Assembly: GCF_965196625.1 (NCBI RefSeq)
Contig: NZ_OZ239769.1
Span: 780,001 to 812,000, forward strand
Source of the DNA: Candidatus Saccharimonadota bacterium
Lineage (GTDB): Bacteria; Bacteroidota; Bacteroidia; Cytophagales; Amoebophilaceae
Direction: 5' to 3'
DNA: 32,000 bases
Shown: one piece after another, positions 7,512-10,115 of the stretch
Numbering within the stretch: position 1 is the stretch's first letter
Layout: the number at the start of each line of letters is the position of its first letter
Notes under the pieces: generated by a model
Told to the model about the DNA's origin: nothing
What the model saw: only the letters and a program-made list of their open reading frames with translations
The model's database searches: none
Program-made: the position numbers and the translations under genes

Positions 7512-7661
7512 CTAATTTTTAAAACTTTTAATCATATCCTTGAGCGCATTCAATTTTAAGAAAGCTTCTACTGGAGAAAGGCTATTGATATCAATAGCCT
7601 CTAAGAAGGCTTTGAGGGTATTCAGTTCTTTATCTGAACCAAAAAGTTTCAGTTGATAGGC
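7512..7661 (-). other. mutS: orphaned in-frame C-terminal tail of mutS (49 sense codons plus TAG) lying after the premature TAA
   Basis: In the same frame as mutS, directly after TAA (7664..7662), it reads AYQLKLFGSDKELNTLKAFLEAIDINSLSPVEAFLKLNALKDMIKSFKN* (TAG at 7514..7512). It contains a QLxLF clamp-binding-type pentapeptide and the LSPxEA...L..LK helix typical of MutS C-termini. Confidence 0.75.
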
Positions 7662-10115
7662 TTATTTGGGTGCATGCACCACGTTTCCATGGATCTTGCC
7701 ACCTACCCTTGATAGGTGCGTCAATACAGCTCTGGCCCTTTCCAAAATCGCAGCGGGCATACCCGCCATTTGGGCTACATGAATGCCAAAGCTATGCGCA
7801 CTTCCTCCCGCCACTAGTTTATGTAAAAAAAGAATCTTCCGATCTATTTCTTGCACCGCTACATTAAAGTTTTTAACCCTAGGGAGTTCGCTTGCCAGTT
7901 CATTCAGCTCATGGTAATGGGTAGCAAAAAGCGTTTTAGGCCTATAGTTCGGATGATTATGCAAATATTCTACCAGTGCCCAAGCAATAGAAATGCCATC
8001 GTAGGTACTGGTACCGCGTCCTATTTCATCCATCAATACCAAGCTACGGTCACTAAGATTGTGCATAATACTAGCTGTTTCAACCATCTCCATCATAAAA
8101 GTAGACTCCCCTTGGGCTAAGTTATCTGAGGCGCCTACCCTTGTGAATATTTTATCTACGATGCCAATATGTGCCCAATCTGCTGGTACAAAAGAGCCCA
8201 TTTGTGCCATTAAAACCGTTAAGGCAACCTGACGCAATAGGGCGGATTTACCCGCCATATTCGGCCCTGTAATGACGATAACTTGTTGTGTGGATGGGTC
8301 TAAATAAATGTCATTAGGCGTGTAGGTTTTATCTATGGGCAGCCGCTGCTCAATAACAGGATGGCGGCTTCCTTTAAGATGCAACAACGTGCCATCATCT
8401 ATAATAGGCTTGGTATAATGATACTCAGCCGCCTGCTTCGCAAAAGAAAGATAGCCATCCAATTGTGCAATATGTTTGGCATTTTTTTGAATCTCTGGAA
8501 TTGCTGCTGCTGCTGCTGCTACTAAGGCTTGATAAATTTGTTGCTCTAGCAGTTGTGCCGCTTCTCCTGCATGTAGGATCCGCTCCTCATAGGTTTTTAA
8601 CGCTTCAGTGATATACCGTTCTGCACCAGCTAAGGTCTGTTTGCGCATCCAATCTGCAGGTACTTTATTTTTATGGGCATTGGGGACTTCAAGGTAATAG
8701 CCAAATACACGGTTATAAGAGATTTTTAAGGAAGGAATATGGGTACGCTCGCGCTCTTTTTGTTGCAGTTGAACCAAATAATCTTTTCCATCGTAAATGA
8801 TTTTATTTAAATCATCCAACTCATCGTTCACATGCGGCCGAATCAGCCCCCCTTGATTGACTAGTATAGGGGGATCTTCCTGCAGGGTATGGTGAATGCT
8901 TTCCACCAACGCATGACAGCCATTCAGCTGTTCACTAAGCTTTTGTAATAAAGGGCATCCGCTCGCTTGCAGCGCCGTTTGCATCGGTTGAACTTGCTCT
9001 AATGCCCTTTTTAAAGCCACCATCTCCCGTGGATTCACCCTACCCACCGCTACTTTAGAAATAAGCCGCTCTAGATCACCTATTTGGTGCAAACAGCGTA
9101 CCAATTGTTCTGCGCGTGCAGCATCTCCTACAAGATATTCTACTATAGCCAACCGCTCTTGAATAGGTGCCACTGATTTAAGCGGAAACAGCAACCATTT
9201 TTTAAGCAAGCGCGCCCCCATAGGGGTAACCGTTCTATCTAAGATCTCAATAAGCGTGGTTCCACCTTCCTGCTGCGGCACCATCAACTCTAAAGCTTTA
9301 ACGGTAAATTGATCCAGCCAAACATAGTGATGCTCCTCTAGCCGGGCAATTGAACGAATGTGCTTGATATCTTTATGTTCCGTTTCCGATAAATAGTGTA
9401 AAATTACACCAGCTGCTATAATACCCGCAGCATAATCTGCGATGCCAAAACCTTTTAAAGAATGGGTTCCAAAATGATTGTTCAGCAAACCATAGGCATA
9501 ATCAAACTGAAACACCCACTCTTCCAGCGCATAAGTATGCAACCCACCTTGCGCAAAACCATCCCATAAAGCCTGTTGTTTTTTATTAAAAACAACTTCA
9601 GATGGCGCCAAATGATGCAATACCTTTTGCATATAATCCGATGCCCCTTGCGTTACAAAAAATTCACCTGTAGAAAGATCTAAAAAAGCCATGCCCAGCA
9701 CTCCTTTATCAAAAAAAATCGATGCGAGGTAATGATTGGCCCTTGTATCCAACACCGCTTCACTAAAAGAAAGACCCGGCGTAACCAATTCCGTAACCCC
9801 TCTTTGTACAATACCCTTGGCTTGTTTGGGATCTTCTAACTGATCACAAATCGCCACCCGATGGCCCGCCTTTACCAATTTGGGCAGATAAAGATCCAAG
9901 GCATGGTGGGGAAAACCAGCCAACTCCACACTAGCAGCCGATCCATTCGCCCGCTTGGTAAGCGCAATATCTAGCACCTTACTCGCCGTAACCGCATCTT
10001 CCAGAAAAGTTTCGTAAAAATCACCCACCCGAAAGAGCAATAATGCCCCAGGATATTTTTCTTTGATCGCGAAATACTGCCGCATTAAAGGCGTTGGCGC
10101 AACTGGTTTTGACAT
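7662..10115 (-). CDS. mutS: DNA mismatch repair protein MutS, ending at a premature in-frame TAA
   Basis: The N-terminus TPLMRQYFAIKEKYPGALLLFRVGDFYETF, Walker A GPNMAGKSALLRQ, and the DEIGRGTSTYDGISIA and THYHEL motifs are all present. The 817-aa ORF stops 50 codons before the apparent ancestral stop. Confidence 0.95.
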   Translation of the reverse strand: MSKPVAPTPLMRQYFAIKEKYPGALLLFRVGDFYETFLEDAVTASKVLDIALTKRANGSAASVELAGFPHHALDLYLPKLVKAGHRVAICDQLEDPKQAKGIVQRGVTELVTPGLSFSEAVLDTRANHYLASIFFDKGVLGMAFLDLSTGEFFVTQGASDYMQKVLHHLAPSEVVFNKKQQALWDGFAQGGLHTYALEEWVFQFDYAYGLLNNHFGTHSLKGFGIADYAAGIIAAGVILHYLSETEHKDIKHIRSIARLEEHHYVWLDQFTVKALELMVPQQEGGTTLIEILDRTVTPMGARLLKKWLLFPLKSVAPIQERLAIVEYLVGDAARAEQLVRCLHQIGDLERLISKVAVGRVNPREMVALKRALEQVQPMQTALQASGCPLLQKLSEQLNGCHALVESIHHTLQEDPPILVNQGGLIRPHVNDELDDLNKIIYDGKDYLVQLQQKERERTHIPSLKISYNRVFGYYLEVPNAHKNKVPADWMRKQTLAGAERYITEALKTYEERILHAGEAAQLLEQQIYQALVAAAAAAIPEIQKNAKHIAQLDGYLSFAKQAAEYHYTKPIIDDGTLLHLKGSRHPVIEQRLPIDKTYTPNDIYLDPSTQQVIVITGPNMAGKSALLRQVALTVLMAQMGSFVPADWAHIGIVDKIFTRVGASDNLAQGESTFMMEMVETASIMHNLSDRSLVLMDEIGRGTSTYDGISIAWALVEYLHNHPNYRPKTLFATHYHELNELASELPRVKNFNVAVQEIDRKILFLHKLVAGGSAHSFGIHVAQMAGMPAAILERARAVLTHLSRVGGKIHGNVVHAPK
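8503..8520 (-). repeat. (GCA)6 trinucleotide microsatellite inside mutS encoding Ala6
   Basis: The plus strand reads (GCT)6. In the mutS frame this is VAAAAAAIPE. Confidence 0.8.

What the first reader, a model, noticed from the sequence alone, without database searches (positions are those of the whole stretch)
7512..7664. mutS is cut by an in-frame TAA two codons before an otherwise intact clamp-binding C-terminal tail
The mutS ORF ends ...GNVVHAPK-TAA (7664..7662). Reading on in the same frame gives 49 uninterrupted sense codons, AYQLKLFGSDKELNTLKAFLEAIDINSLSPVEAFLKLNALKDMIKSFKN, then TAG (7514..7512).

The tail contains a QLxLF pentapeptide. This is the beta-sliding-clamp binding motif class found near the C-terminus of bacterial MutS (QLSFF-type in Bacillus, QMSLL in E. 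coli). It also contains the terminal L(S/T)PxEA..L..LK helix common in Bacteroidota MutS.

The tail has no further stops or frameshifts, so the lesion is very recent, a sequencing error, or tolerated through readthrough. If it is real, this MutS lacks its clamp tether and C-terminal oligomerisation region. That would be a partial loss of mismatch repair in a genome that shows homopolymer frameshifts nearby.
Basis: partly seen in the sequence, partly recalled or inferred. Interest (0 to 1): 0.7.

Follow-up and report, generated by a model that had tools for sequence, protein, structure and literature searches.

The report
Fresh nonsense codon truncating Cardinium MutS
In this Cardinium insect/mite endosymbiont genome, the mismatch-repair gene mutS has a single premature TAA stop that removes its last 49 residues (clamp-binding motif and oligomerisation helices). 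This is an ordinary, recent gene-erosion event, or less likely a base-calling error, and not a new mechanism.

Summary
mutS (minus strand, 10115..7662) ends at TAA 7664..7662. The same frame then runs 49 sense codons to TAG 7514..7512.

The tail is homologous to the C-termini of all 117 full-length relatives examined (Cardinium, Amoebophilaceae, Cytophagales; 855-892 aa). None of them has a stop at this position.

The TAA sits in a variable two-residue linker. It aligns to about residue 809 of E. coli MutS, so the product is a natural counterpart of the laboratory truncation MutS800. It keeps domains I-V. It loses QLKLF (aligned to E. coli QMSLL) and the helix-loop-helix C-terminal domain.

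TAA is the commonest normal stop in the window, so this is not a codon reassignment.

The lesion is a substitution, not a homopolymer indel. The MutS core is very well conserved. The orphaned tail carries a Phe where 117 of 117 relatives have Leu. This favours a real, recent mutation, but a consensus error cannot be excluded without reads.

The same 32 kb also holds a second fresh TAA (yifB/comM, replacing an invariant Gln), two A8 frameshifts in effector-type genes, and a gene relic. The genome is actively eroding.

Expected consequence: weakened or lost mismatch repair. Modest interest.

The parts
7662..10115 (-). Truncated mutS ORF, 817 aa, containing complete MutS domains I-V
   Evidence: ORF list and translation. 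Pfam MutS_I, II, III, IV and V all score far above threshold, and MutS_V covers residues 613-801. The GDFYE mismatch motif and the GPNMAGKS Walker A motif are visible. None of the 323 positions that are at least 97% conserved in 117 relatives differs in the window.
7662..7664 (-). Premature in-frame TAA (context CCC AAA TAA GCC TAT)
   Evidence: Relatives carry GCG, GTA or ATG (A, V, M) or E/G at this variable linker position, with no indel. It aligns to about residue 809 of E. coli MutS.
7515..7661 (-). Orphaned 49-codon MutS C-terminal tail, no longer translated
   Evidence: Homologous to the C-termini of 117 relatives. No ATG, GTG or TTG start lies upstream of the clamp motif within the tail, read directly.
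7641..7655 (-). QLKLF pentapeptide, the presumed beta-clamp-binding motif
   Evidence: Q is present in 113/117, L in 109/117 and F in 111/117 relatives. It aligns with E. coli QMSLL 812-816. The motif's identity comes from PMC8034640 and PMC1636413.
7518..7631 (-). Predicted helix-loop-helix (tail residues 11-48), corresponding to the MutS C-terminal dimerisation/tetramerisation domain
   Evidence: The AlphaFold2 model has mean pLDDT 82, with helices at residues 11-22 and 30-48. It aligns positionally to E. coli 830-852, including the D835 loop. The Foldseek match to 2OK2 is not significant.
7560..7562 (-). TTC (Phe) at a position where 117/117 relatives have Leu (L852F); the only departure from a fully invariant site in the whole gene
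   Evidence: The tail departs at 1 of 2 fully invariant sites and the body at 0 of 212 (Fisher p about 0.009, post hoc).
7512..7514 (-). Ancestral mutS stop codon (TAG)
   Evidence: It coincides with the stop position of the Cardinium orthologues. L001, L002 and L081 also end ...KN/NN-TAG.

Best explanation
A real, lineage-specific and evolutionarily recent single-base substitution created a TAA in the variable linker just upstream of the MutS C-terminal region of this Cardinium endosymbiont.

Translation stops at residue 817. The product keeps all five core domains: mismatch binding, connector, lever/clamp and ATPase with its helix-turn-helix. It lacks the QLKLF beta-clamp-binding motif and the C-terminal helix-loop-helix that stabilises dimers and forms tetramers. 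It is therefore a natural equivalent of the laboratory truncation MutS800.

By analogy, the protein should still recognise mismatches. It should dimerise weakly, not be recruited to the replisome, and support mismatch repair and anti-recombination poorly at single-copy expression. That would make this a partial to near-complete loss of MMR.

The event is one step in the ongoing gene erosion of this genome.

Shown: the stop, the homology of the tail, its position relative to E. coli MutS, the intact core, and the other lesions nearby. Inferred: that the base call is correct, and the size of the functional effect.
For: - The stop and the open tail are present as described.
- All relatives are full length, and none has a stop at this position.
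- The lesion is a substitution with no indel.
- TAA is the main genuine stop in the window: 17 TAA, 7 TAG, 2 TGA.
- Only four tRNAs are found, and none is a suppressor.
- The truncation point corresponds to E. coli residue ~809, QLKLF to QMSLL, and the tail to the CTD.
- The tail is predicted as a helix-loop-helix.
- The core is strongly constrained: 0 of 323 positions at least 97% conserved differ. The tail carries Phe at a Leu that is invariant in 117/117 relatives, and Ala at a Glu present in 108/117.
- Pairwise dN/dS of the tail is 0.21-0.47, no higher than between intact relatives at 0.20-0.44, so the event is recent.
- The assembly looks accurate. The long homopolymers I checked in housekeeping genes (hisS, the 890-1726 membrane gene, mutS itself, recQ, gatA, tyrS) are in frame. 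Only two are out of frame, both in effector-type genes.
- Other fresh lesions lie nearby. The yifB/comM TAA replaces a Gln invariant in 120/120 relatives. There are also two frameshifts and a gene relic.
- Functional analogy: MutS800 is monomer/dimer in solution, a chromosomal mutS-delta-800 behaves as a null, and the multicopy form is a 5-10-fold mutator (PMC1636413). The clamp motif contributes to MMR in B. subtilis (PMC5027486).
Against: - No reads, second isolate or independent assembly of this strain could be found, so a consensus error is not excluded.
- The evidence for relaxed constraint in the tail rests essentially on one substitution and is post hoc. At the 90% conservation threshold the window's tail (2/12) is no different from relatives (1-4 of 12-13).
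- The synonymous branch length of the window lineage (about 0.32) equals that of its sister (about 0.33), so there is no sign of a long-standing mutator state.
- The clamp motif is dispensable for MMR in E. coli, P. aeruginosa and Caulobacter. It is absent in several Amoebophilaceae relatives. The functional cost may therefore be smaller than assumed.
Confidence: 0.55

Rival explanations
1. Sequencing or assembly consensus error. The true genome has a sense codon (for example GAA, CAA or AAA) at 7662-7664, and MutS is an ordinary full-length protein of about 867 aa.
For: - Apart from the stop, the gene is perfect and the tail is intact.
- A second, equally clean TAA occurs in another highly conserved gene 23 kb away, also followed by G. 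This could indicate recurrent miscalls.
- No independent copy of this strain exists in the searched collections.
Against: - The lesion is a substitution, whereas the usual residual errors of long-read assemblies are homopolymer indels. The homopolymers of 8-9 bases checked in housekeeping genes are in frame.
- 249 CAAG/CTTG sites remain in the window, so there is no systematic CAAG to TAAG conversion.
- The tail has a unique Leu-to-Phe change at a 117/117 invariant site. That is expected after a real loss of translation, not from a one-base error.
Confidence: 0.22
2. The stop is real but nearly neutral. In this intracellular lineage the C-terminal region contributes little, and the 817-aa core protein sustains adequate mismatch repair. 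The truncation would then be a tolerated variant rather than a loss of function.
For: - The clamp-binding motif is not needed for MMR in E. coli, P. aeruginosa or Caulobacter.
- Several Amoebophilaceae relatives (P0016-P0020) have lost the YQLxLF block.
- MutS800 complements when over-expressed (PMC1636413).
- The window lineage shows no rate acceleration.
Against: - The terminal helix (PxEALLKL) is retained in every one of the 117 relatives, including those without the clamp motif. This argues for strong selection on the CTD.
- A chromosomal single-copy mutS-delta-800 is null in E. coli.
- The absence of rate acceleration is equally explained by a recent lesion.
Confidence: 0.18
3. The stop is bypassed by stop-codon readthrough, suppression or recoding, so full-length MutS is still made in useful amounts. 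Selection for this product is what keeps the tail open.
For: - The tail is still open and mostly conserved.
- A second in-frame TAA followed by G lies in yifB.
Against: - TAA terminates 15 of the 24 other ORFs examined, at ends that match their homologues where checked.
- The stop is not conserved in any relative.
- No suppressor tRNA or known recoding RNA was found in the window.
- From general knowledge, UAA is read by both release factors and is the least leaky stop.
- An open tail of 49 codons is expected for a recent lesion. It has a probability of about 0.04 even in random sequence.
Confidence: 0.04

Closest known systems
E. coli MutS800 / chromosomal mutS-delta-800 (engineered deletion of the C-terminal 53 residues)
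   Same: The truncation falls at the equivalent place: window stop at about E. coli residue 809, against 800 for the engineered form. It removes the same two elements, the clamp-binding pentapeptide (QMSLL 812-816 in E. coli, QLKLF here) and the helix-loop-helix dimer/tetramer domain. Domains I-V stay intact.
   Different: This is a natural allele in a MutH-less Bacteroidota endosymbiont, not a laboratory construct in a methyl-directed system. Its phenotype is untested here, and 8-9 more linker residues are retained.
Clamp-motif mutants of MutS in B. subtilis, P. aeruginosa and Caulobacter
   Same: Loss of the C-terminal Qxx(L/M)x(F/L)-type motif that tethers MutS to DnaN at the replisome (PMC8034640; PMC5027486).
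   Different: Those mutants keep the C-terminal oligomerisation domain, which is also lost here. Their effect on MMR ranges from important (B. subtilis) to negligible (E. coli, P. aeruginosa, Caulobacter), so it cannot be transferred with confidence.
Erosion or loss of mismatch-repair genes in host-restricted bacterial symbionts
   Same: A repair gene is hit by an inactivating mutation in a small genome (a single contig of about 1.16 Mb). Other fresh pseudogenes lie nearby. One example is mutL, absent from the flavobacterial symbiont Walczuchella but present in its relatives (PMC3971599).
   Different: Here the gene is not lost or degraded. It has a single terminal nonsense codon that leaves the catalytic core intact. 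All other sampled Cardinium genomes keep full-length mutS.

Membership tests
Bacterial MutS1 (mismatch-recognising MutS) | Five-domain architecture (MutS_I-V) | tested here: met
   All five Pfam domains score far above their gathering thresholds in the 817-aa ORF. The closest named relatives are Cardinium 'DNA mismatch repair protein MutS' at 81-85% identity.
Bacterial MutS1 (mismatch-recognising MutS) | Phe-x-Glu mismatch-binding motif in domain I, and Walker A/B motifs in domain V | tested here: met
   GDFYE at residues 31-35, GPNMAGKS, and LVLMDEIGRGTS are read directly from the translation. None of the 323 highly conserved positions differs.
Bacterial MutS1 (mismatch-recognising MutS) | Full-length C-terminus (clamp motif plus CTD) as in orthologues | tested here: not met
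   A premature TAA after residue 817 removes it, whereas relatives are 855-892 aa. The gene is a member by descent but encodes a truncated product.
Beta-sliding-clamp binding motif (QL[SD]LF-type pentapeptide) | Sequence match to the consensus, located in a disordered linker near the C-terminus | tested here: met
   QLKLF is conserved as YQL[KSA]LF in most of the 117 relatives. It aligns with E. coli 812-QMSLL-816. The motif identities come from PMC8034640.
Beta-sliding-clamp binding motif (QL[SD]LF-type pentapeptide) | Physical binding to DnaN | not testable with these tools
   Needs a pull-down or peptide-competition assay with Cardinium DnaN.
MutS C-terminal dimerisation/tetramerisation domain (E. 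coli 801-853; PDB 2OK2) | Helix-loop-helix fold | tested here: inconclusive
   AlphaFold2 predicts helix 11-22, a loop, and helix 30-48 at pLDDT 82. Foldseek against the PDB gives no significant hit. 2ok2_A appears only at rank 12 (E 7.5, 24 columns, rmsd 0.7 Å, 38% identity).
MutS C-terminal dimerisation/tetramerisation domain (E. coli 801-853; PDB 2OK2) | Sequence homology of the tail to the E. coli CTD | tested here: inconclusive
   When anchored by domain V, the tail aligns ungapped to E. coli 809-852 (E about 5e-6 for the 108-aa query). A profile of the tail alone finds no MutS chain in the PDB.
Programmed stop-codon readthrough / codon reassignment | The in-frame stop is conserved in relatives, or the codon is not used as a terminator in the genome | tested here: not met
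   0 of 117 relatives have the stop. TAA ends 17 of 26 ORFs in the window. No suppressor tRNA was found.
Nonsense pseudogene in an eroding endosymbiont genome | Lineage-specific premature stop relative to orthologues, with other inactivating lesions in the neighbourhood | tested here: met
   See for the lineage-specific stop. Nearby lesions are the yifB TAA at an invariant Gln, two A8 frameshifts, and a relic of an AAA-ATPase_like/PDDEXK_9 gene.
Nonsense pseudogene in an eroding endosymbiont genome | Relaxed constraint downstream of the stop | tested here: inconclusive
   L852F is unique at a 117/117 invariant site (p about 0.01, post hoc). Tail dN/dS is not elevated.

The most novel reading that the evidence does not exclude
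The window may capture the very onset of mismatch-repair failure in a facultative endosymbiont. In that reading, a natural MutS800-like allele is still expressed as a mismatch-binding core without clamp tether or oligomerisation domain. It would produce an attenuated-MMR, hyper-recombination or mutator state that is already seeding fresh nonsense and homopolymer lesions, such as the yifB/comM TAA and the two A8 frameshifts. This would be a datable 'first hit' of the mutational ratchet that drives symbiont genome decay.
Probability: 0.2. Interest if true: 0.5.

Novelty: new member of a known kind. Interest (0 to 1): 0.28.

Why it matters
If the base call is right, this Cardinium strain carries a natural version of the classic MutS800 truncation, while every other sampled Cardinium keeps full-length MutS. 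That would make it a convenient natural experiment in two ways. First, it tests whether the MutS C-terminal region matters in a MutH-independent, clamp-dependent repair system. Second, it shows how loss of repair starts in symbiont genome erosion. For annotation, mutS here should be flagged as C-terminally truncated, not as intact. Beyond that, it is an ordinary pseudogenising point mutation.

Tried and rejected
- **Strain identity and independent copies.** The exact 817-aa protein is in the protein collection only once, from NCBI on a 1,158,289-bp contig, with no name or accession. The look-up of encoding contigs has no record of it. An exact-pattern scan of metagenome contigs that allowed any codon at the stop found nothing. 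Literature searches for Cardinium with mutS, mutL or the contig size found nothing on this gene. The only mutS mention concerns unrelated MutS8-like secreted proteins.
- **Long neutral decay of the tail.** Pairwise Nei-Gojobori dN/dS for tail against body is uninformative with 49 codons. Window pairs look like pairs of intact relatives.
- **Tail-only profile against PDB sequences.** No MutS hit.
- **Foldseek of the tail model against the PDB.** Nothing significant.
- **Codon reassignment or suppressor tRNA.** Rejected.
- **Separate translation of the tail.** Rejected, because no start codon lies upstream of the clamp motif.
- **Frameshift-based bypass.** Irrelevant, because the tail is in the zero frame.
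- **hisS as another broken gene.** It simply runs off the window edge.
- **Simmons et al. 2008 (PMC2350196).** Could not be read, so the B. subtilis mutS800 figures are not quoted.
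Full report
**What is in the sequence.** On the minus strand an 817-codon ORF starts at ATG 10115 and ends ...GNVVHAPK-TAA at 7664..7662. The same frame continues for 49 sense codons (AYQLKLFGSDKELNTLKAFLEAIDINSLSPVEAFLKLNALKDMIKSFKN) to TAG 7514..7512. An open run of 49 codons after a stop is only mildly unusual. 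P is about 0.035 from composition, and 4.2% of inter-stop intervals in the window are that long. The case therefore rests on homology.

**Identity and relatives.** The ORF contains complete Pfam MutS domains I-V, with MutS_V covering residues 613-801. A search with the read-through product returned the exact 817-aa protein once, from NCBI on a 1,158,289-bp contig, unnamed. It then returned full-length MutS proteins of Cardinium endosymbionts at 81-85% identity and 857-873 aa (hosts include Dermatophagoides farinae, Oedothorax gibbosus and Encarsia). Amoebophilaceae and free-living Cytophagales followed at 61-68%. Almost all cover 98-100% of the read-through query. The window is therefore from a distinct Cardinium lineage. 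Gene order downstream (mutS, tRNA-Gly, tRNA-Leu, a PQ-loop/SemiSWEET gene) matches the D. farinae symbiont locus in having the PQ-loop gene next to mutS.

**The tail is the MutS C-terminus.** Alignment of C-termini shows the 49 codons aligned without indels to every full-length relative. They share a Y-Q-L-[KSA]-L-F block and a D-I-N-x-L-[ST]-P-V-E-A-L-L-K-L helix. None of the 117 relatives has a stop at this position.

At the DNA level the window reads CCC AAA TAA GCC TAT CAA CTG. The relatives read CCA AAA GCG CAC TAT CAG (L081), CCG CAA GTA CAA TAT CAA (L001) and CCT CAA ATG CAA TAC CAA (L003). The lesion is therefore a substitution in a variable two-residue linker, where relatives have A, G, E, V or M. 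Two relatives have Glu there, so GAA to TAA is possible, but the ancestral codon cannot be fixed.

**Position relative to characterised MutS proteins.** phmmer of the last 108 residues, with the stop replaced by E, against PDB sequences hits full-length E. coli MutS (7ai5, 7ai6, 7ou2) at E about 5e-6. The tail aligns ungapped. QLKLF falls on 812-QMSLL-816, and LEAIDINSLSPVEAF falls on LENLDPDSLTPRQAL, which contains D835. The stop corresponds to E. coli residue ~809. The product is therefore a natural counterpart of MutS800, the C-terminal truncation used for crystallography.

AlphaFold2 with the tail alignment predicts a helix-loop-helix, with helices at 11-22 and 30-48 and pLDDT 82. This matches the description of the E. 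coli CTD. However, a tail-only profile finds no MutS chain in the PDB, and Foldseek gives no significant match. 2OK2, the MutS CTD fusion, appears only at rank 12 with E 7.5. Structural equivalence is plausible but not independently demonstrated.

**Not recoding.** TAA ends 17 of the 26 ORFs examined (TAG 7, TGA 2). The window's four tRNAs are Leu(taa), Gly(gcc), Ile(gat) and Leu(tag). The stop is not conserved in any relative. The tail has no start codon upstream of the clamp motif, so it cannot be made separately. From general knowledge, UAA is recognised by both release factors and is the least leaky stop. Only trace readthrough is expected.

**Real or artefact.** No reads or second isolate are available. 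The indirect evidence favours a real mutation.

- The lesion is a substitution. The long homopolymers I checked in housekeeping genes (hisS G9 and A8, the A9 in the 890-1726 membrane gene, the T8 in mutS, the A9 in recQ, gatA, tyrS) are in frame. Only two are out of frame, both in fast-evolving effector-type genes. The assembly is therefore not riddled with errors.
- The MutS core is unusually clean. It departs at 0 of 323 positions that are at least 97% conserved, and at 7 of 416 that are at least 90% conserved. That is fewer than any of 14 Cardinium-clade relatives, which show 8-23.
- The tail carries Phe where 117 of 117 relatives have Leu (L852F, TTA to TTC), and Ala where 108 of 117 have Glu. 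The contrast is significant (Fisher p about 0.01), but it is post hoc and rests mainly on one site.
- 249 CAAG/CTTG sites remain in the window, so there is no systematic CAAG to TAAG miscall.

Against this, two very clean TAA codons in two highly conserved genes within 32 kb could also be miscalls. I put the artefact at about 0.2.

**Age.** Pairwise dN/dS of the tail in window pairs (0.21-0.47) matches that of pairs of intact relatives (0.20-0.44). The synonymous branch length of the window lineage (about 0.32) equals its sister's (about 0.33). If real, the stop arose in the last few percent of the branch, and there is no long-standing mutator signature in this gene.

**Surroundings.** The window shows active gene erosion.

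- yifB/comM (29876-31426, +) has an in-frame TAA at 30485-30487. It replaces a Gln that is invariant in 120 of 120 relatives, so CAA to TAA. The rest of the protein is intact: 0 of 152 invariant positions differ, and it is 93% identical to Cardinium YifB.
- An ankyrin-repeat paralogue (10329-11626) is frameshifted at A8 10734-10741.
- A repeat-domain protein gene (27300-28407, minus strand) is frameshifted at T8 28008-28015.
- A short relic of an AAA-ATPase_like/PDDEXK_9-type gene lies at about 4925-5214.

**Likely consequence (inference).** In E. coli, MutS800 is monomer/dimer instead of dimer/tetramer and activates MutH poorly. It gives a 5-10-fold mutator effect even from a multicopy plasmid. 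As a chromosomal allele it behaves as a null for mutation avoidance and anti-recombination (PMC1636413).

The clamp motif itself contributes to MMR in B. subtilis. It does not in E. coli or P. aeruginosa (PMC5027486). In Caulobacter it is required for replisome localisation but not for activity (PMC8034640). Several Amoebophilaceae relatives have lost the YQLxLF block yet keep the terminal helix. This suggests that the oligomerisation helix is the more constrained element.

The most likely outcome is a MutS that still recognises mismatches but supports repair poorly at native expression. The magnitude is unknown.

**Verdict.** This is a new instance of a known kind: a terminal nonsense mutation eroding a repair gene in a host-restricted symbiont. 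It is worth an annotation flag and a look at the reads, but it is not a new mechanism.

Noticed in passing
window 29876-31426 (+); stop at 30485-30487: yifB/comM (ChlI + Mg_chelatase + Mg_chelatase_C) is interrupted by a single in-frame TAA. It replaces a Gln invariant in 120/120 relatives ([13 protein letters not shown]). The rest of the 512-aa product is intact and 93% identical to Cardinium YifB. This is a second fresh nonsense lesion, in a DNA-processing gene.
   Followed up: yes
window 10329-11626 (+); A8 at 10734-10741: An ankyrin-repeat gene, a paralogue of the 518-aa gene at 11852-13408, is split into 155-aa and 253-aa ORFs by a frameshift at an A8 run.
   Followed up: partly
window 27300-28407 (-); T8 (A8 on the coding strand) at 28008-28015: A gene for a secreted-looking protein with repeated '...EATGNTEGY.I.SISxNKNG.Y' modules is split into overlapping 134-aa and 243-aa ORFs by a frameshift at an A8 run. 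It could be decay, phase variation or a homopolymer miscall.
   Followed up: partly
window ~4925-5214 (+), within the 880-bp gap 4774-5653: Short ORFs (MKKLPIGVSDFHRLVSNDYLFCDKT... and ...GIAFSGKLVLAAYATYNA) look like the N- and C-terminal remnants of an AAA-ATPase_like/PDDEXK_9 gene. An intact gene of this type (581 aa) lies near mutS in the D. farinae Cardinium locus L081. This is probably a deletion relic.
   Followed up: no
proteins P0016-P0020 (Amoebophilaceae / Cardinium-like MAGs), C-termini: These full-length MutS relatives lack the YQLxLF clamp-binding block (for example PISLSIDTD, DRPTTVVHAD) but keep the terminal L[ST]P[IV]EALLKL helix. The clamp tether has therefore been lost repeatedly in this endosymbiont family, while the C-terminal helix is retained.
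   Followed up: partly
protein P0027 (ENA metagenome, 810 aa, 73% identical): This MutS relative diverges into an unrelated sequence from within the ATPase domain (after ...THYHELN), as expected from a frameshift. It may be an independent case of mutS decay in a related symbiont, or an assembly error.
   Followed up: no
window 5654-6799, 10329-14620 (+): A cluster of four paralogous genes encodes signal-peptide-like N-termini followed by ankyrin repeats. These are typical Cardinium host-interaction candidates, and they flank mutS on both sides.
   Followed up: no
window 6865-7258 (-): The mechanical ORF call for the PQ-loop/SemiSWEET gene (6865-7215, GTG start) runs into tRNA-Leu(taa) at 7175-7258. 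The real start is probably the internal Met (MNFSS..., about 7140).
   Followed up: no
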